From assembly GCA_945861965.1 (NCBI GenBank), contig CAMAWM010000010.1:996-64995 (forward strand): a stretch of 64,000 bases of DNA, given 5' to 3'. Source of the stretch: Chitinophaga pinensis (GTDB taxonomy: Bacteria > Bacteroidota > Bacteroidia > UKL13-3). Below, one piece after another: positions 51,837-57,462 of the stretch. Numbering within the stretch: the first letter of the stretch is position 1; each line of letters starts with the position of its first letter. Below the pieces are notes generated by a model. The model did not search any database and was not told the DNA's origin. It was given only the letters and a program-made list of their open reading frames with translations. The translations under genes were made by a program, and so were the position numbers.

Positions 51837-52718
51837 TTATTCATTCTCATAACCCCATTCTTTTAACAATCTGTCGTTGTCTCTCCAATCTTCTTTTACC
51901 TTCACAAATGTTTGAAGAAAAACTTTTTTGCCAAAAAATATTTCCAAATCTCTTCTTGCTGCAATGCCTACATTTTTTATTGCAGAGCCAGCTTTTCCAA
52001 TTAAAATTTGTTTTTGCGAATCGCGCATTACGTAAATCAAAGCAGAAATTCGCAGAATTTTTTCTTCGTCTTTAAACTCGTCAATTTCTACCTGAACAGA
52101 GTATGGAATTTCTTCTTTGTAACGCATCATTATTTTTTCGCGCAAAATTTCGGATGCAATAAATCGTTCTGATTTGTCGGTTACCTGATCTTGATCGAAA
52201 TAAGGTTTTCCTTCGGGCAAATATTTTTTTATTGAATGGATGAGCGTATCTAAATTAAATTTATTTAAAGCAGACAATGGAATTATTTCTTTAAAATTAA
52301 CCTGATTTTTCCAAAAACTTACTTTTTTCATTAAGCCCTCTTCGTTGCTTTCATCAATTTTATTGATAAGGCAAAGCATTGGAATTTGAATTAATTTTAA
52401 TTTTTCAATCAAATCCAACTCTTCATTTCTGTCATTGAAATCGGTGACAAACAATACCAAATCTGAATCCTGCAAACTCTCGTTTACAAATTTCATCATG
52501 CTGCCTTGCAATTTATAGCGTGGTTGAATAATTCCAGGAGTATCTGAAAATACTATTTGACTATCTGCAGAATTCAATATGCCTCGAATTCGGTGGCGAG
52601 TGGTTTGAACTTTTGGGGTAATAATTGAAATTTTTTCGCCAAGAAGCGCATTCATCAAGGTTGATTTTCCCACATTGGGTTTTCCTATTATGCCTACAAA
52701 GCCTGACTTAAATTGCAT
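51837..52718 (-). CDS. era: GTPase Era
   Basis: 293 aa with GKPNVGKST, DTPG, NKID and a C-terminal KH domain (LIGKAGSAIK). Confidence 0.95.
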   Translation of the reverse strand: MQFKSGFVGIIGKPNVGKSTLMNALLGEKISIITPKVQTTRHRIRGILNSADSQIVFSDTPGIIQPRYKLQGSMMKFVNESLQDSDLVLFVTDFNDRNEELDLIEKLKLIQIPMLCLINKIDESNEEGLMKKVSFWKNQVNFKEIIPLSALNKFNLDTLIHSIKKYLPEGKPYFDQDQVTDKSERFIASEILREKIMMRYKEEIPYSVQVEIDEFKDEEKILRISALIYVMRDSQKQILIGKAGSAIKNVGIAARRDLEIFFGKKVFLQTFVKVKEDWRDNDRLLKEWGYENE

Positions 52719-52754
52719 TTTTTAAAAATTAGTTGCGAGGCAAAGAAAGCGCAT

Positions 52755-52762
52755 TATCTTTG
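52755..52762 (+). promoter_or_regulatory. candidate -7 box (TATCTTTG) for the tRNA-fMet gene
   Basis: Exact TAnnTTTG match, 63 nt upstream of the tRNA 5' end, with a TTG about 20 nt further upstream. Confidence 0.4.
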
Positions 52763-52824
52763 CACTCCCAAAATATTAAACTGTTTTTGGGTTTGAGACG
52801 AAGTATTTAGTACGAAAAATATAT

Positions 52825-52896
<72 letters not shown>

Positions 52897-52905
52897 CAAA
52901 AAATA

Positions 52906-52938
52906 AAAGGTCAACAATTCATTTGTTGACCTTTTTTT
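52906..52938 (+). terminator. rho-independent terminator after tRNA-fMet
   Basis: 12-bp stem AAAGGTCAACAA / TTGTTGACCTTT with a 5-nt loop, followed by a T-run. Confidence 0.8.
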
Positions 52939-53225
52939 ATGTGATAGATTGTAAAAGTTAAAAACGCATTCTACCAATTCTGCTTACTGATTGCAAAAGC
53001 CATTATTACTTAGGTTAAATAAAGTTTAATTGTGTTTCACAAAAACTTTTCCCATTTCTGCACATTTCCGAAAAAGTCCTTATTGGCCTAGGGCAAAAAT
53101 TATGAACAGGATTAAGAATCCCGAAATTGTTGTTGATTTCTACTGTTTAAAAATATTCAAATAGCCATATCGCGGAGTTTCGGAATTGTGAATTTCTTGT
53201 AAAATTTTGACAGCTTTCATCAAAT

Positions 53226-53233
53226 TATATTTG
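53226..53233 (+). promoter_or_regulatory. candidate -7 box (TATATTTG) for the DnaB-like/retron cassette
   Basis: Exact TAnnTTTG match, 20 nt upstream of the ATG at 53253. Confidence 0.35.
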
Positions 53234-53252
53234 AATAAAGTTTGAAATCAAA

Positions 53253-54665
53253 ATGCAAGAATTAATTTACCTCGAGCAATCTATTTTAAGAAAAATTATT
53301 GAAAATCCGGAAGCATTTGTCCAAACTGTGCACGAATTAAATGATAGGTATTTCAATAATTTATTTCACCGCAAATTGATTGAAAGAATTCGTGATGTTT
53401 TTAATAAGTATAAAGAAAATATTGATTGTGTTTTGCTGCAAAATGAATTGAGCAAATTTGTAAATAATTTAAACACTACAGAAATTCAGGAAATGGAATT
53501 TGTTTTGATGAAACCATTGATTGACAAACAAAAGGTAAAAGCATATCTTGAATTGTTGGGCGAACATTTTCTAAAAAATCAGCTACAAAAAATTGCTGCT
53601 AACATGTCAGAATTATGTAATTCCAAGTCTTATGTAAACCGAAAGGAAATTGAACCTTTCATCAAAAGGTTGGATGCATTATATACTACAAAATACAGTT
53701 CTGAAATTCATGATATTTCAGATTTGTTTCAAGAGTTTTTGAGCGAAATAAATTCAAATAGTAGACCGTATGTAAAAACAGGTTGGAACAATTTCAATAA
53801 AAATTTTCTGGGCATTTATCGTGGATGTATTACAGTAGTTGGAGCAAGGCCAGGAATTGGAATAACTGCTTTTTTATGTAATTTATTGTTAAACACTGTT
53901 GACGAATCAGAATTAAATTACATGATACAAATTGGCGAAAGTAACAAAGGTATTGTTTCATTAATGATGTCATTGATAAGTGGAATTTCTGTATCAGAAA
54001 TAAATAACAATGAATGCATGTCCGAGAAAAATATATCGCTTTTGAAAGAAGCTGAAACCACCATTCAAAAAATGAATCTTGATATTGTTTTTGTTTCTAC
54101 TTTGAGCTTGTATGAATTGGAAAGTATGATTCGTTCCAAAGCTGTTCAGTACAAAATAAAAATGCTTATTGTAGGAAAAATTCAATACGTGTATTTGGAA
54201 AATAAAAGTAAATACATGACCAGAGATCGTGAAATTGGAATCATAATGCAATCGTTAAAAGCACTGGCTATCGAATTGAATATTTGCTTGATACTTGGTA
54301 GTCATGTTTCTCGGTCAGCTGAAAGGAGGGGTAATCTAATGCCAATATTAAGTGATTTAAGAGATAGCGGTTATATTGAAGAGTTTGCAAGCCTTGTGTT
54401 GTTCCTTAATCGCCCAGAAGCGTATGGAATATTTGAGATGGAAGATGGTTCGTCTAGCAATGAAAAATTAATAGTTACTGTTTCCAAAAACGAAAATGGT
54501 GGTTCGGGCAATTGTTTGCTCAGGTATCAATTATTATCACAAAGTGTTACAGATTTTATAGATGAAAATCCATATGAACCAGAAACTAATTTTTACAACA
54601 AGGATACATTTTTGAAACTTATAAATGATTCAAATGAATTTGAAAACAAAACACCTTTTCAATAA
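53253..54665 (+). CDS. DnaB-family helicase paralog with degenerate ATPase motifs (predicted inactive); putative retron accessory/effector protein
   Basis: 470 aa. There is a DnaB N-terminal-domain pattern (LEQSILRKIIENPEAF...FHRKLIERI). The RecA-like C-domain has GARPGIGITAF in place of GARPxMGKTAF, MLIVGKIQY in place of LIVIDYLQ, and then LKALAIELNICLILGSHVSRSAERRG...LSDLRDSGYIEE. Confidence 0.75.
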   Translation: MQELIYLEQSILRKIIENPEAFVQTVHELNDRYFNNLFHRKLIERIRDVFNKYKENIDCVLLQNELSKFVNNLNTTEIQEMEFVLMKPLIDKQKVKAYLELLGEHFLKNQLQKIAANMSELCNSKSYVNRKEIEPFIKRLDALYTTKYSSEIHDISDLFQEFLSEINSNSRPYVKTGWNNFNKNFLGIYRGCITVVGARPGIGITAFLCNLLLNTVDESELNYMIQIGESNKGIVSLMMSLISGISVSEINNNECMSEKNISLLKEAETTIQKMNLDIVFVSTLSLYELESMIRSKAVQYKIKMLIVGKIQYVYLENKSKYMTRDREIGIIMQSLKALAIELNICLILGSHVSRSAERRGNLMPILSDLRDSGYIEEFASLVLFLNRPEAYGIFEMEDGSSSNEKLIVTVSKNENGGSGNCLLRYQLLSQSVTDFIDENPYEPETNFYNKDTFLKLINDSNEFENKTPFQ

Positions 54666-54671
54666 AATATT

Positions 54672-54826
54672 TGCAGGCAGAGAATAGCATGAGTAATTTA
54701 AAAGTATGAGTCTGAAAATGATAAACGCTTTGGGGCGGTGCACCTGCTGCCTTTTGTTCAATGTGACCAACACTGCAAGGCTAGCGCCTTGCATCGACTT
54801 TGGAATAAGATGTTAAACTGCCTGCA
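54672..54826 (+). ncRNA. putative retron msr/msd non-coding RNA template
   Basis: A 9-bp inverted repeat, TGCAGGCAG (54672-54680) / CTGCCTGCA (54818-54826), brackets the whole intergenic region and ends 15 nt before the RT start. There is an internal 8-bp hairpin TGCAAGGC-TAGC-GCCTTGCA (54774-54793). No ORF is present. Confidence 0.6.
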
Positions 54827-54841
54827 TTTTTTAACGACAAT

Positions 54842-55801
54842 ATGAAATTTTATGGAATAAATTATATTAATGATTTGTGCAGTTTACTTAATTGTACTCG
54901 TAAAGAATTATTTGAATTAATACAAAATAGGCAATACACACAATTTACAATTCCTAAAAAGAAAGGAGGGTTTAGACTTATAGAAAGCCCAGACGAAAAG
55001 TTGAAAAAAACGCAAAGAGGAATAGCGGATTTGTTAAATGAAGATTATGCCAATCACAAACCAAAGTGTGTTCATGGATTCGTAAAACATATTTTCCATG
55101 TGCCATCAACAAAAAATATTGGAATCATAAGCAACGCAAAAAATCATGTAGCGAAGAAATATGTTTGGAATATTGATCTGCAAGATTTCTTTCATTCAAT
55201 TACAATAGTTAAAGTTCGCAATCTATTTATGGGTAATATTTTTAAAATGGAAAGAACCAGTGCTGAAGTATTAGCTCTGTTATGTACGCACAATAAAAAA
55301 TTGGCCGTTGGTTCGCCAAGCTCTCCTGTTTTAAGCAATTTTGTATTGTTGAATTTGGATGAAACCTTGCAACAGATTGCTAATATTAATAATTTAACCT
55401 ATAGCCGATATGCCGATGATCTTACCTTTTCAAGCAATGAAATTATTCAAACCGAAACGATGTCTGAAATTAGAATGAATATTGAATCAAATGGGTTTAA
55501 ACTTAATCCTTTAAAAAACCGATTGAAGAAAAATACTCAAAAACAATCTGTTACGGGTTTAAAAGTAAATGTAAAATTAAATGTAGACAGAAAATTTAAA
55601 AGAAAACTTAGAGCTATAAATCATGATATAGATTGCAATGGAATAGCAGCGGCAACAAAAAAATATTTTAAAATGAAATCAGAAGCAAGCAAAGACGATA
55701 TTTCAAAATTTGTACATGCCTACAATGGATTGAGTAATTATTATAGTTTAGTCGTAAATAATGCAAATCAAAAATTTGAAGGATACGAAACGATGAATTA
55801 A
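54842..55801 (+). CDS. retron-type reverse transcriptase
   Basis: 319 aa with IPKKKGGFRLIESP (RT1), NAKNH (the retron NAxxH; 55133-55147), IDLQDFFHSI (RT3), GSPSSPVLSNF (RT4), YSRYADDLTFS (RT5; YADD at 55409-55420) and QSVTGLKVN (the retron VTG; 55550-55558). Confidence 0.85.
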   Translation: MKFYGINYINDLCSLLNCTRKELFELIQNRQYTQFTIPKKKGGFRLIESPDEKLKKTQRGIADLLNEDYANHKPKCVHGFVKHIFHVPSTKNIGIISNAKNHVAKKYVWNIDLQDFFHSITIVKVRNLFMGNIFKMERTSAEVLALLCTHNKKLAVGSPSSPVLSNFVLLNLDETLQQIANINNLTYSRYADDLTFSSNEIIQTETMSEIRMNIESNGFKLNPLKNRLKKNTQKQSVTGLKVNVKLNVDRKFKRKLRAINHDIDCNGIAAATKKYFKMKSEASKDDISKFVHAYNGLSNYYSLVVNNANQKFEGYETMN

Positions 55802-56580
55802 TAAAACCTAGCGCATTTCATTCGCGTAGGAATTCTGTACACTAAGCTGAATGAAGAAATGATGTACCAATCGTTGTAATCAGCATTGCCGCGCTTTTGG
55901 CCAACTCTGCTTTTGAATGCGCCTGTAGCTTCAAATGATCTATCGACAAGATAACTTCGCATAACAGTTTTGTTAGAAATGTCAATGTAGTTGGCGCTGC
56001 AATCGTCTAAATAATCGGTAAATGTTCTACGAAAACCAAGCTGTCCTTCAAGCGACATTCTTCTTGCAAAAATCCATTTTACTCCAACACCAAAAGGAAT
56101 TGAGAAATCAAATTTGCTGTAACTTACATTTTCAGTTCTCCAATCTCGAAGCACAACTTTCGTGCTTCCAAACATGGTTTCAGGACTAAATTTAAATGCA
56201 GAAAGTCCGCCATACACATATCCGGTAATTTTATCATCTAACACTCCGTATCCAAATTTTACAAAATTGAATTCGAAAATGGAAGTGTATTCTGTAACTT
56301 TAGTTGTAAAATCGAGGTTTCGGTTTTTGTTGAACTCAAAATTTTTATCTGTTCCGCTTAAAGTCAAACTTGTTATCTGGTTGTTCCAGGCCCAATTTTT
56401 TGATATATTATAGCGTACAAAAATTGTTGAAGATCCGTGTGTTTCATTCCAAGCAATAGATGGTGCCAAATCGCCCCAATAGTTTGCCAAACCTAGCGAT
56501 AAGCCAAAGTCAACTTTTTGAGATTTTGCAATCTGAAAAGCAAATACAAATAAAATTAAAACTAATTTTTTTTGTTTCAT
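55798..56580 (-). CDS. outer-membrane beta-barrel protein (DUF6089-like), paralog 1
   Basis: 260 aa with a signal peptide, alternating beta-strand pattern, the shared motif TDYLDD and C-terminus C-x-RFY. Confidence 0.6.
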   Translation of the reverse strand: MKQKKLVLILFVFAFQIAKSQKVDFGLSLGLANYWGDLAPSIAWNETHGSSTIFVRYNISKNWAWNNQITSLTLSGTDKNFEFNKNRNLDFTTKVTEYTSIFEFNFVKFGYGVLDDKITGYVYGGLSAFKFSPETMFGSTKVVLRDWRTENVSYSKFDFSIPFGVGVKWIFARRMSLEGQLGFRRTFTDYLDDCSANYIDISNKTVMRSYLVDRSFEATGAFKSRVGQKRGNADYNDWYIISSFSLVYRIPTRMKCARFY

Positions 56581-56595
56581 TTTAAGTGAAAACTA

Positions 56596-57462
56596 TTAAT
56601 AAAAAATTGGACATCCTTGTCCTTTGTTTCTAATAATAAACGAAAGTGTAACACCAGCCATTATATAAATGTCGTTTTCAAATGTTGTTTTTCGGCTTCT
56701 TAATTCTCCTTCTTGAAAATAGCCTTGCGGTATAGTTGGATCCGTTTCCCACGAACGATCAGCTAGTCTGCGAGCAACATTACCCGATGCGCCTTCCACC
56801 ACAGAATTAAGTGCATACATTCCTCCAACATCGTCTAAGTAATTTGTACTTGTGTATCTAATTCCAATTTCAGCCCCTAAAGTGAAGTTGTTTCCAATTC
56901 GTTGTCTAATTCCAACACCAAAAGGGAAAGCAAATTCTGTTAATGAATATCGTTTTTGATCGTTGTAAACAGTGCTTCCTTGTCCTTCTGTGGCTAAAGG
57001 CTGCAGTTCGTAAACGGTATCGTTCAATGAAGTTTTAGGATTGTAATTAAATACGCCAATACCACCAAATGCATAAAGCACAAAAGGTCGAGTATTGATA
57101 TTCCTTAAATCATTTTCAAGTATATTATACTCGCAATGCACAGAAAATTCAAATACATCACTGAAGAAATTGAGGTTCCTAAGTTTTGATTCAGCAACTG
57201 AACTGTTTTTATCGTCAGCAGACAATTGTCCGTATCCTGCAAAGCCTTTTACTGCTACAAAATTTGAAATATTATACCTTCCAAACAAACCAACAGACGT
57301 GCCACTTGAGCCCAAAACAAGGCTTTCGTCACTTAAATCGCCAATATAATTTGACATTCCACCCATCAATCCAATCTCTACCATTTGTGCTTTTAAAGGC
57401 ATCAAATTCAGGCTTATAAATAAACAAAGTATAGCTTTTTTAAATACACTCATAGAAAACAA
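56596..57462 (-). CDS. outer-membrane beta-barrel protein (DUF6089-like), paralog 2
   Basis: 288 aa, colinear with the neighbouring paralog (GDLS/GDLA, FPFGVG, TNYLDD, C-terminal CPIFY). Confidence 0.6.
   Translation of the reverse strand: MFSMSVFKKAILCLFISLNLMPLKAQMVEIGLMGGMSNYIGDLSDESLVLGSSGTSVGLFGRYNISNFVAVKGFAGYGQLSADDKNSSVAESKLRNLNFFSDVFEFSVHCEYNILENDLRNINTRPFVLYAFGGIGVFNYNPKTSLNDTVYELQPLATEGQGSTVYNDQKRYSLTEFAFPFGVGIRQRIGNNFTLGAEIGIRYTSTNYLDDVGGMYALNSVVEGASGNVARRLADRSWETDPTIPQGYFQEGELRSRKTTFENDIYIMAGVTLSFIIRNKGQGCPIFY

What the first reader, a model, noticed from the sequence alone, without database searches (positions are those of the whole stretch)
54666..54841. Candidate msr/msd: a1/a2-like inverted repeat, internal hairpins and an imperfect long msd stem
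TGCAGGCAG (54672-54680) and its exact complement CTGCCTGCA (54818-54826) sit at the two ends of the intergenic region. This matches the retron a1/a2 geometry, with a2 just upstream of the RT. Inside are a GGCGG-N8-CTGCC hairpin containing the palindrome GGTGCACC (about 54734-54751; the msr side) and a perfect 8-bp hairpin TGCAAGGC-TAGC-GCCTTGCA (54774-54793). The latter is extendable by CCAA/TTGG (54767-54770 / 54800-54803) across an internal loop (the msd side). G residues follow a1 directly (AGAGAATAGC), where a branching 2'-OH guanosine is expected. The exact msr/msd boundaries and the priming G cannot be fixed from sequence alone.
Basis: partly seen in the sequence, partly recalled or inferred. 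Interest (0 to 1): 0.65.

Follow-up and report, generated by a model that had tools for sequence, protein, structure and literature searches.

The report
Retron template RNA beside DnaB-like gene
The 176-base gap just upstream of the reverse transcriptase gene is very probably the structured RNA (msr/msd) that this retron copies into small single-stranded DNA; it is a divergent member of a DnaB-partnered retron lineage that was predicted by computer in 2026 and has never been tested at the bench.

Summary
By itself the 9-bp inverted repeat is only mildly unusual (P about 0.03). The comparative evidence is what carries the case.

About 30 distinct cassettes from other genomes have the same layout: a DnaB_C-like gene, a 150-215 nt gap, then a retron-type RT. 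Their gaps share one architecture:
- an a1/a2 closing stem whose sequence changes but stays complementary;
- a second inner helix followed by an invariant G;
- a small hairpin;
- a hairpin with a conserved GUGUUCCUG-type loop;
- a hypervariable long hairpin;
- a conserved AAGAU motif just before a2.

Across these cassettes 90% of cells pair and 24 of 28 pairs show compensatory changes.

A covariance model built without the window aligns 54668-54830 end to end. This is the only hit in the 2.1-Mb genome. It is significant only when the search is restricted to this interval (E = 3e-5); genome-wide E is 0.7.

The lineage (protease-less type XI-like RT plus DnaB_C) and a candidate ncRNA for it were published computationally (Toro 2026). 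This is therefore a new, divergent member of a known kind. No msDNA has been shown.

The parts
53253..54665 (+). DnaB-like accessory gene (470 aa) of the cassette. Its stop codon lies 6 nt before a1.
   Evidence: Pfam DnaB_C 2.4e-40 and DnaB N-terminal domain 4.3e-08. It had no PADLOC hit. A DnaB_C-like gene lies directly upstream of the RT in every locus whose RT is at least 37% identical to the window's and whose upstream DNA is held, and in none of the more distant retron RT loci. Walker A reads GARPGIGIT, i.e. K to I.
54672..54680 (+). a1, the 5' arm of the closing stem P1
   Evidence: 9/9 complementary to 54818-54826. The homologous stem in 30 relatives shows compensatory changes in 11 of 11 pairs, with 92.8% of cells paired.
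54685..54690 (+). P1b 5' strand (UAGCAU). It pairs with 54810-54815 (AUGUUA).
   Evidence: Read from the sequence and aligned to the family helix AUUAU/AUAAU by models built without the window. The family helix is 94% paired.
54691..54691 (+). Invariant G directly after P1b; best candidate for the branching (priming) guanosine
   Evidence: The G of the (U/A)AUG motif is invariant in alignments A4 and A6. It is also present in the window, L003, L093 and L096. The assignment as branch point is inferred, not shown.
54692..54731 (+). P2 region, equivalent to the family's small hairpin GAGUC...GACUU. It is enlarged and poorly paired in the window and holds a second ATGAGT at 54706-54711.
   Evidence: Model alignment marks 3 of 6 P2 pairs as non-standard. 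MAFFT and the unconstrained model latch onto the second ATGAGTC.
54732..54753 (+). P3, the conserved msr-side hairpin: stem 54732-54739 with 54746-54753 (core GGCGG/CUGCC) and loop motif GUGCACCUG
   Evidence: The family helix is 99.4% paired, with an invariant U.G closing pair and loop consensus GUGUUCCUG. Between the window and L003 one pair changes on both sides (G.U to U.G) and two pairs change on one side, with no pair lost.
54767..54803 (+). msd-side hairpin: perfect 8-bp stem 54774-54781 with 54786-54793, plus a tentative outer CCAA/UUGG
   Evidence: It occupies the position of the hypervariable long hairpin in all relatives. That sub-region folds better than shuffles in the family: mean z = -2.7, window z = -2.3.
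54807..54815 (+). Conserved AAGAU motif followed by the P1b 3' strand (AUGUUA, 54810-54815). This is the predicted start of the reverse-transcribed template.
   Evidence: The G and A of AAGAU are invariant and the flanking A, U and A nearly invariant in the 30-sequence alignment. The model aligned it to the window's UAAGAUGUU.
54818..54826 (+). a2, the 3' arm of the closing stem P1, followed by a U-tract (54827-54832)
   Evidence: A T-run follows a2 in the gaps inspected.
54842..55801 (+). Retron-type reverse transcriptase (319 aa) with no fused effector domain
   Evidence: Pfam RVT_1 5.9e-19. Best PADLOC matches are RT-Protease_XI 5e-85, RT-TIR_XII and RT-Toprim_I-C, covering the RT part only. 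NAxxH (N98, A99, H102), YADD (190-193) and VTG (237-239) fall in invariant or near-invariant columns.

Best explanation
The interval encodes the msr/msd non-coding RNA of a three-part retron made of a DnaB-like protein, an ncRNA and an RT.

Proposed mechanism:
1. Transcription. The + strand transcript is probably co-transcribed with the DnaB-like gene, because the DnaB-like stop codon lies 0-30 nt from a1 in most relatives.
2. Folding. a1 (54672-80) pairs with a2 (54818-26). An inner helix (54685-90 with 54810-15) extends this stem.
3. RT docking. The RT recognises the conserved hairpin P3 (54732-53, loop GUGCACCUG).
4. Priming. The 2'-OH of the invariant G54691 at the inner end of the stem serves as primer.
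5. Copying. The RT copies the RNA 5' of the inner helix, starting at the conserved AAG (54807-09) and passing through the hairpin 54767-54803. It stops before P3. The product would be a branched msDNA of roughly 50-55 nt carrying a short hairpin.

Shown here: the RNA architecture and its covariation in relatives, the synteny, and the retron-type motifs of the RT. Inferred: transcription, the identity of the branch G, the extent of the msd, and any defence role.
For: - RT identity. The RT is retron-clade: all of the 25 best PADLOC matches shown are retron RT models, the best being type XI at 5e-85. The NAxxH, YADD and VTG positions fall in invariant or near-invariant alignment columns.
- Synteny. 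Every locus with an RT at least 37% identical to the window's, where upstream DNA is held, has a DnaB_C-like gene followed by a 150-215 nt gap and then the RT. Of 56 more distant retron RT loci, 55 lack the DnaB-like gene and one (L035) has it.
- Closing stem. In nearly every gap the longest long-range perfect inverted repeat (8-14 bp, arms 120-156 nt apart) is the closing stem. Its sequence differs between loci. Shuffled gaps give a mean longest repeat of about 6.
- Covariation. With a fixed structure on 30 sequences that exclude the window, 90.1% of cells pair and 24 of 28 pairs change on both sides. No shuffle out of 500 reached this, and slid controls paired only 29-52%. The 23-sequence set gave the same picture. 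RNAalifold recovered P1, P2 and P3 unaided.
- Strand. An invariant U.G pair closes P3. In the three well-paired helices (P1, P1b, P3) there are 9 G.U cells against 3 A.C cells. The window's + strand also folds better than its - strand.
- Fit of the window. Models built without the window align 54668-54830 end to end in the expected register: 18.8 bits, E = 1.4e-4, and 22.4 bits, E = 3.2e-5, for the targeted interval. This site is the only R2 hit in the 2.1-Mb genome.
- Closest divergent relative. In L003 (RT 57% identical) a1/a2 are kept. P3 changes G.U to U.G on both sides of one pair and on one side of two further pairs, and no pair is lost.
- Specificity. The model finds unseen family members at E = 1e-13 to 1e-23, each inside the gap between the DnaB-like gene and the RT. 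It finds nothing better than E = 0.8 in 24 retron RT loci that lack a DnaB-like gene.
Against: - Genome-wide the model scores are not significant: R1 gave E = 2.06, with two other sites scoring almost the same, and R2 gave E = 0.7. The window's RNA is a divergent member. Its assignment rests on synteny and architecture as well as on score.
- P2 is poorly formed in the window.
- A second ATGAGT at 54706-54711 allows an alternative, weaker register.
- The outer msd helix loses a pair in L001 and shifts register in L003.
- The msd hairpin has no covariation support within the window's own sub-lineage, because only L001/L002 and L003 are close enough to compare.
- There are no expression or msDNA data.
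- No member of this lineage has been shown to make msDNA (PMC13712802).
Confidence: 0.75

Rival explanations
1. The RNA is a structured partner of the RT but is not converted into a classical 2'-5' branched msDNA. It could act as a scaffold or regulator of the RT and DnaB-like complex, or it could template another kind of cDNA, as some defence-associated RTs do.
For: No msDNA has been shown for any type XI or type XI-like retron (PMC13712802; PMC7736814 could not find an ncRNA for type XI). The window's msd-like hairpin is short, and the CCAA/UUGG outer helix is weak. The branch G is assigned only from conservation and position.
Against: The layout matches the retron template point for point. 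A closing stem carries an invariant G on its inner 5' side and a conserved template-start motif on its inner 3' side. There is a conserved recognition hairpin and a hypervariable long hairpin. The RT has the retron-specific NAxxH and VTG motifs.
Confidence: 0.13
2. The interval is a cis-regulatory leader or an attenuator/terminator between the DnaB-like gene and the RT gene. Under this view it sets the ratio of the two proteins and has no template role.
For: A T-run follows a2 in the window and in the relatives' gaps. In the window P3 is followed by UUUUGUU and was the only terminator-like site found in 53000-56000.
Against: The U-run after P3 is not conserved in the family, where P3 is followed by C-A/G-U and then variable sequence. 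A simple terminator does not need five conserved elements, an invariant unpaired G, or a hypervariable yet always-structured inner hairpin. The RNA occurs only with this retron RT clade.
Confidence: 0.07
3. The repeats in the window are chance or residual features of AT-rich intergenic DNA and have no function.
For: The 9-bp inverted repeat alone has P of about 0.03. Genome-wide covariance-model E-values are 0.7-2.
Against: L003, whose RT is only 57% identical, keeps the interval alignable with structure-preserving changes. The same architecture recurs in about 30 cassettes with strong covariation. The targeted model test gives E = 3e-5.
Confidence: 0.03

Closest known systems
TXI_noncan_h: candidate protease-less type XI-like retrons with DnaB_C accessory proteins and a predicted upstream ncRNA (N. 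Toro, mSystems 2026, PMC13712802; bioRxiv 10.64898/2026.05.14.725207)
   Same: - The RT is stand-alone and matches type XI RT models best, with no protease domain.
- A DnaB_C-containing protein is encoded in an adjacent ORF.
- A conserved structured RNA with an a1/a2-type inverted repeat lies within about 100 nt upstream of the RT start.
- Hosts are Bacteroidota.
- There is no experimental validation.
   Different: - The paper reports DnaB_C mostly at offset +1, whereas here it lies upstream in every locus examined.
- The paper describes a compact double stem-loop of 23 pairs. Here the conserved core has 28 pairs: P1, P1b, P2 and P3. Each RNA also has a variable hairpin.
- Their sequences and model are not held here, so identity of the two RNA families could not be tested.
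- The window's sub-lineage has a full-length DnaB-like protein that lacks the Walker A lysine.
Classical retron msr/msd RNAs (for example Ec86/Eco1 and the types I-XIII of Mestre et al. 2020, PMC7736814)
   Same: - The order is a1, branching G, msr hairpin(s), msd long hairpin, a2, then the RT on the same strand.
- The RT carries NAxxH and VTG.
- The cassette has three parts, including an accessory protein.
   Different: - No Rfam family matches the interval.
- The closing stem is in two parts, with a 4-5 nt / 2-3 nt internal loop.
- The accessory gene precedes the ncRNA, leaving no room for a separate promoter.
- The accessory protein is a DnaB-family ATPase, not one of the effectors of the 13 types of Mestre et al. 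2020, and it matches no PADLOC model.
Canonical type XI retrons (RT fused to a trypsin-like protease)
   Same: They give the closest RT profile match: PADLOC RT-Protease_XI at 5e-85 over the RT part.
   Different: - The window's RT has no protease domain (319 aa against about 506-510).
- No ncRNA was identifiable for type XI in 2020 (as cited in PMC13712802).
- The session's RNA model gives no hit better than E = 0.8 in the 24 retron RT loci without a DnaB-like gene that were searched.

Membership tests
Retron (msr/msd ncRNA + RT) | [quoted passage not shown] | tested here: met
   NAKNH at residues 98-102, YADD at 190-193 and VTG at 237-239 fall in invariant or near-invariant columns of a 39-sequence alignment. 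All of the 25 best PADLOC matches shown are retron RT models. The motif definition is from PMC7736814.
Retron (msr/msd ncRNA + RT) | Structured ncRNA directly upstream of the RT on the same strand, closed by the inverted repeats a1/a2 | tested here: met
   9/9 inverted repeat at 54672-80 and 54818-26, ending 15 nt before the ATG. The homologous stem covaries in 11 of 11 pairs. G.U pairs and the better + strand fold indicate the strand.
Retron (msr/msd ncRNA + RT) | Conserved branching G at the inner end of the a1/a2 stem | tested here: inconclusive
   An invariant G (window G54691) follows the inner helix in all sequences aligned or inspected. Whether it is the 2'-5' branch point cannot be read from sequence.
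Retron (msr/msd ncRNA + RT) | msd region with a long stem-loop that varies in sequence between retrons | tested here: met
   The segment between P3 and AAGAU is hypervariable but folds better than shuffles: mean z = -2.7 over 26 sequences, window z = -2.3. The window stem is short, at 8 bp plus a weak 4-bp extension.
Retron (msr/msd ncRNA + RT) | Production of multicopy single-stranded DNA joined 2'-5' to the RNA | not testable with these tools
No experimental report exists for this lineage (PMC13712802).
TXI_noncan_h (Toro 2026) | Protease-less type XI-like RT with an adjacent DnaB_C protein | tested here: met
   The 319-aa RT matches RT-Protease_XI over the RT part only. DnaB_C at 2.4e-40 is in the adjacent upstream ORF.
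TXI_noncan_h (Toro 2026) | Match to the published ncRNA covariance model and placement of the RT inside the published clade | not testable with these tools
   No supplementary files are held for the paper. Only the verbal description could be compared.
DnaB_C-cassette ncRNA family defined here (models R1 and R2) | Significant covariance-model match | tested here: inconclusive
   Targeted to the syntenic interval: 18.8 bits, E = 1.4e-4 (R1) and 22.4 bits, E = 3.2e-5 (R2), full length in the expected register. Genome-wide: E = 2.06 (R1) and E = 0.7 as the sole hit (R2). Other members score 72-115 bits.
Any curated RNA family (Rfam 15) | Match at E up to 10 | tested here: not met
   No Rfam match falls in 54666-54841. 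The only significant match in 52500-56500 is the tRNA at 52825-52896.

The most novel reading that the evidence does not exclude
The window and L003 form a sub-lineage in which the DnaB-like partner keeps a full DnaB layout, including the N-terminal domain, but has lost the Walker A lysine (K to I and K to V). The other family members inspected have a shorter protein with GK[TS] where the motif was found. The ncRNA is remodelled in the same sub-lineage: a different a1/a2 sequence, an enlarged P2 and a short msd. The boldest reading is that the msDNA made from this RNA is a single-stranded platform for an ATPase-dead helicase look-alike. That protein would act as a decoy or sensor of replication or helicase-loading factors, rather than as an enzyme-type effector. 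This would be a retron output logic not yet described.
Probability: 0.12. Interest if true: 0.7.

Novelty: new member of a known kind. Interest (0 to 1): 0.4.

Why it matters
Type XI and type XI-like retrons were the retron groups for which no template RNA could be found until a 2026 computational survey, and none has been tested.

This locus gives a fully delimited candidate that can go straight to the bench:
- closing stem;
- predicted priming G (G54691);
- RT-recognition hairpin;
- template start;
- msd hairpin.

The same analysis gives about 30 relatives with strong covariation, enough to design msDNA assays. It also shows that the DnaB-like partner always lies directly upstream of the RNA, which fits co-transcription.

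If validated, the system would add a helicase-family partner to the list of retron effectors. It would also add a compact RNA and RT pair from Bacteroidota to the toolbox of retron-based DNA producers.

Tried and rejected
- Locus search with the window RT alone. The scan of genome contigs confirmed no relatives. The scan with a 39-sequence RT alignment worked.
- MAFFT register. MAFFT placed the window's second ATGAGTC (54706-54712) under the family's UAUGAGUC motif. The unconstrained R1 hit (54684-54876) used the same register, with a false a2 inside the RT gene. I rejected this register for three reasons: L003 lacks the second motif; the first ATGAG keeps the family geometry (a1, a 4-5 nt loop, a 5-6 bp helix, then G); and both models choose it when confined to the gap.
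- Strand test by wobble pairs. A global count of G.U against A.C over all proposed pairs was not decisive (34 against 26), because poorly paired terminal columns dominate it. Restricted to P1, P1b and P3 it is 9 against 3.
- A supposed 17-nt tandem duplication (54689-54705 and 54706-54722). By eye only about 10 of 17 positions match, so I do not claim it.
- Promoter scan. The sigma-70-type scan found fewer sites than shuffles did (10 against 14.2). Its one site near a1 (TTGAAA-17-TAAAAT, 54640-54668) is not evidence, and Bacteroidota promoters are not covered.
- Rfam gave nothing in the interval.
- The supplementary files of the 2026 paper are not held.

Full report
**Observation.** The interval 54666-54841 is the whole gap between a 470-aa ORF (53253-54665) and a 319-aa ORF (54842-55801) on the + strand.
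- TGCAGGCAG (54672-54680) and CTGCCTGCA (54818-54826), a 9/9 inverted repeat;
- the perfect 8-bp hairpin 54774-54781 / 54786-54793;
- GGCGG-N8-CTGCC at 54734-54751, containing GGTGCACC;
- CCAA/TTGG at 54767-54770 / 54800-54803.

Taken alone these are only mildly unusual. A perfect long-range repeat of at least 9 bp arose in 2.8% of 1000 dinucleotide shuffles. The + strand MFE is -49.9 kcal/mol with z = -2.59. The - strand gives -42.5 kcal/mol with z = -1.5.

**Neighbouring genes.**
- The downstream ORF is a reverse transcriptase (Pfam RVT_1, 5.9e-19). Its best matches among defence-system models are all retron RTs: RT-Protease_XI at 5e-85, then RT-TIR_XII and RT-Toprim_I-C. Each match covers only the RT part, so this RT has no fused effector.
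- The retron hallmarks fall in invariant or near-invariant columns of a 39-sequence alignment: NAxxH (N98, A99, H102), YADD (190-193) and VTG (237-239). The motif definitions are from Mestre et al. 2020, PMC7736814.
- The upstream ORF is a DnaB-family protein (DnaB_C 2.4e-40, DnaB N-terminal domain 4.3e-08). It matched no PADLOC model.
- Rfam has nothing in the interval. The only significant Rfam match nearby is a tRNA at 52825-52896.

**Related loci.** The RT has hundreds of relatives. Loci came from look-ups by identity, a genome scan with an RT alignment and a search of related genomes.
- Every locus with an RT at least 37% identical to the window's has a DnaB_C-like gene directly upstream on the same strand, separated by 150-215 nt. 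The one exception, L012, is cut at the contig end.
- Of 56 more distant retron RT loci, 55 lack the DnaB-like gene and one (L035) has it.
- In most of these loci the DnaB-like stop codon lies 0-30 nt from the start of the RNA structure. In one locus it overlaps it. That leaves little room for a separate promoter and points to co-transcription.
- The cassette is patchy among relatives. It was found in 11 of 41 related genomes.

**Shared RNA architecture.** The gaps fold into the same layout:
1. A closing stem P1 (a1/a2). In nearly every gap it is the longest long-range perfect repeat (8-14 bp, arms 120-156 nt apart). Its sequence differs between loci, for example GAGCCGTTG, ACTGCCGGT, AAAGCCGCCC and TGCAGGCAG. 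Shuffled gaps give a mean longest repeat of about 6.
2. A short A-rich internal loop.
3. An inner helix P1b (consensus AUUAU with AUAAU).
4. An invariant G.
5. A small hairpin P2.
6. A hairpin P3 with the conserved loop GUGUUCCUG, closed by an invariant U.G pair.
7. One or two hypervariable hairpins.
8. A conserved AAAGAU motif leading into the 3' strand of P1b.
9. a2, followed by a T-run.

**Covariation in relatives.** On a 23-sequence MAFFT alignment that excludes the window and its two close relatives, a fixed structure of 29 pairs was 86.5% paired, with 24 pairs changed on both sides. On 30 sequences, 28 pairs were 90.1% paired, again with 24 changed on both sides. No shuffle out of 500 reached the observed values. 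Sliding the 3' partners by 1-3 columns dropped pairing to 29-52%. RNAalifold, given no structure, recovered P1, P2 and P3 with 17 of 20 pairs compensated.

**Strand.** The invariant U.G in P3 points to an RNA read from the + strand. So does the count of 9 G.U against 3 A.C cells in the well-paired helices.

**msd-side segment.** The segment between P3 and AAGAU cannot be aligned across the family. It still folds better than shuffles, with mean z = -2.7 over 26 sequences and z = -2.3 for the window. This is the pattern expected of an msd stem.

**Does the window's RNA belong to this family?** It is a divergent member.
- Model R1 (23 sequences, no window) ranked the site first in the 64-kb window. 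The score was only 18.3 bits and the register was wrong, seeded on a second ATGAGTC at 54706-54712.
- Genome-wide, R1 gave E = 2.06, with two other sites scoring nearly the same.
- Confined to the gap, which is the a priori place to look, R1 aligned 54668-54830 end to end in the expected register: 18.8 bits, E = 1.4e-4. It did the same for L003.
- A broader model, R2 (30 sequences, still without the window, L001/L002 and L003), gave a single hit in the whole 2.1-Mb genome at this site: 21 bits, E = 0.7. In the targeted test it gave 22.4 bits, E = 3.2e-5.
- For comparison, unseen typical members score 72-115 bits.
- R1 found nothing better than E = 0.8 in the 24 retron RT loci without a DnaB-like gene that were searched.

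Membership therefore rests on four things together: position, architecture, the targeted score, and the comparison with L003.

**Comparison with L003.** L003 carries the same cassette with an RT only 57% identical, and its gap is still alignable to the window's.
- a1/a2 and the AAGAUGUU motif are identical.
- In P3 one pair changes on both sides (G.U to U.G) and two change on one side (G-C to G.U, U.G to C-G). No pair is lost.
- In P1b a G.U becomes A-U.
- By my reading of the model alignment, the window differs on both sides at six of its nine a1/a2 pairs relative to the family consensus, and all nine still pair.

**Mapping in the window.**

| Element | Coordinates | Sequence or note |
|---|---|---|
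| a1 | 54672-80 | TGCAGGCAG |
| internal loop | 54681-84 | AGAA |
| P1b | 54685-90 with 54810-15 | UAGCAU with AUGUUA |
| invariant G | 54691 | candidate branching G |
| P2 region | 54692-54731 | enlarged, poorly paired |
| P3 | 54732-39 with 54746-53 | loop motif GUGCACCUG |
| msd-side hairpin | 54767-54803 | 8-bp stem plus weak outer helix |
| AAG | 54807-09 | predicted template start |
| a2 | 54818-26 | CTGCCTGCA |
| U-tract | 54827-32 | follows a2 |

In relatives that loop is A-rich and has no conserved G. The invariant G at the inner end of the composite stem is the better candidate.

Weak points of the mapping:
- Three of six P2 pairs are non-standard in the window.
- The outer CCAA/UUGG helix loses a pair in L001 (C54767 to A) and shifts register in L003.
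- The second ATGAGT allows an alternative, wobble-rich pairing with AUGUU.

**Mechanism.** Shown here: a conserved, covarying RNA structure tied to a retron-clade RT and a DnaB-like gene. Inferred from the established retron mechanism (PMC7736814): the RT binds the RNA with P3 as the likely recognition hairpin. It primes on the 2'-OH of G54691 and copies from about 54809 through the 54767-54803 hairpin. The product would be a branched msDNA of roughly 50-55 nt.

**Rivals.**
- A scaffold or regulatory RNA that is never copied into msDNA (0.13).
- A leader or terminator element (0.07). This fits the T-run after a2 and the terminator-like look of P3 in the window, but the latter is not conserved.
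- Chance (0.03).

[quoted passage not shown] It reported a candidate upstream ncRNA with a1/a2 features, found with CMfinder and R-scape, and stated that msDNA synthesis is untested. The window fits that description in RT type and partner domain.

I could not test identity with the published RNA model or clade, because no supplementary files are held. Two details differ from the paper's summary: the position of the partner gene, and their "double stem-loop" against the fuller structure seen here.

I therefore rate this a new, divergent member of a known (computationally predicted) kind, with moderate interest.

Noticed in passing
window 53253-54665 (codon for Ile204 at 53862-53864); L003 2191-3624: The DnaB-like partner lacks the Walker A lysine. 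The window reads GARPGIGIT and L003 reads AARPGMGVT. The other cassette partners in which the motif was found read G-x-R-P-x-[MI]-G-K-[TS], and most of them are about 340-380 aa without the DnaB N-terminal domain.
   Followed up: partly
window 54706-54712: A second copy of ATGAGT(C) lies 17 nt after the first (54689-54694). It matches the family motif UAUGAGUC better than the first copy does. It misleads MAFFT and the unconstrained covariance model, and it can form a wobble-rich alternative pairing with AUGUU (54810-14). L003 has no such copy.
   Followed up: partly
window 54827-54832 and the equivalent position in L003-L035: A run of 4-6 T follows a2 in nearly all the gaps inspected. It may extend the closing stem by pairing with the A-rich 5' flank. 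Alternatively, together with P1 it may act as a terminator that limits read-through into the RT gene.
   Followed up: no
family loci L001-L035, last codons of the DnaB-like genes: Most of the DnaB-like proteins end in a conserved Pro-Phe (ccatttTAA / ccttttTAA). The stop codon lies 0-30 nt from a1 in most loci, and in L011 it overlaps a1. This leaves little room for a promoter between the gene and the RNA.
   Followed up: no
window 52825-52896: A tRNA (Rfam 66.6 bits; anticodon loop CUCAUAA, i.e. CAU) lies about 350 nt upstream of the cassette. The 96%-identical relative L001 has the same downstream neighbours, and the cassette is present in only 11 of 41 related genomes. This is consistent with an inserted island next to a tRNA gene.
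   Followed up: no
window 55798-55801: The RT stop codon overlaps the end of a convergent DUF6089 outer-membrane beta-barrel gene (55798-56580, - strand). A paralogue follows at 56596-57462.
   Followed up: no
L004 615-1532; L006 6887-7795: WYL-domain genes lie within a few genes of two DnaB_C-RT cassettes. The 2026 survey treats WYL and DnaB_C as markers of two separate type XI-like lineages, so the two accessory sets may not be cleanly separated.
   Followed up: no
L016, L020, L021, L025, L095 and others, 3' arm of the variable hairpin: Many family members share a conserved stretch, CUCACUGCGUUCCGCUUCUCA, inside the otherwise variable msd-side hairpin. The window and L003 lack it.
   Followed up: no
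L093 1121-1277; L096 1306-1462: Further divergent variants of the RNA were found. Their a1/a2 are CACTGTTACCC/GGGTAACAGTG and CATTGTTACCT/AGGTAACAATG, and their P3 reads GGCUG-UUGUACCUG-CGGCC. They score low or not at all with model R1 but have the same architecture, so the family is broader than one model captures.
   Followed up: partly
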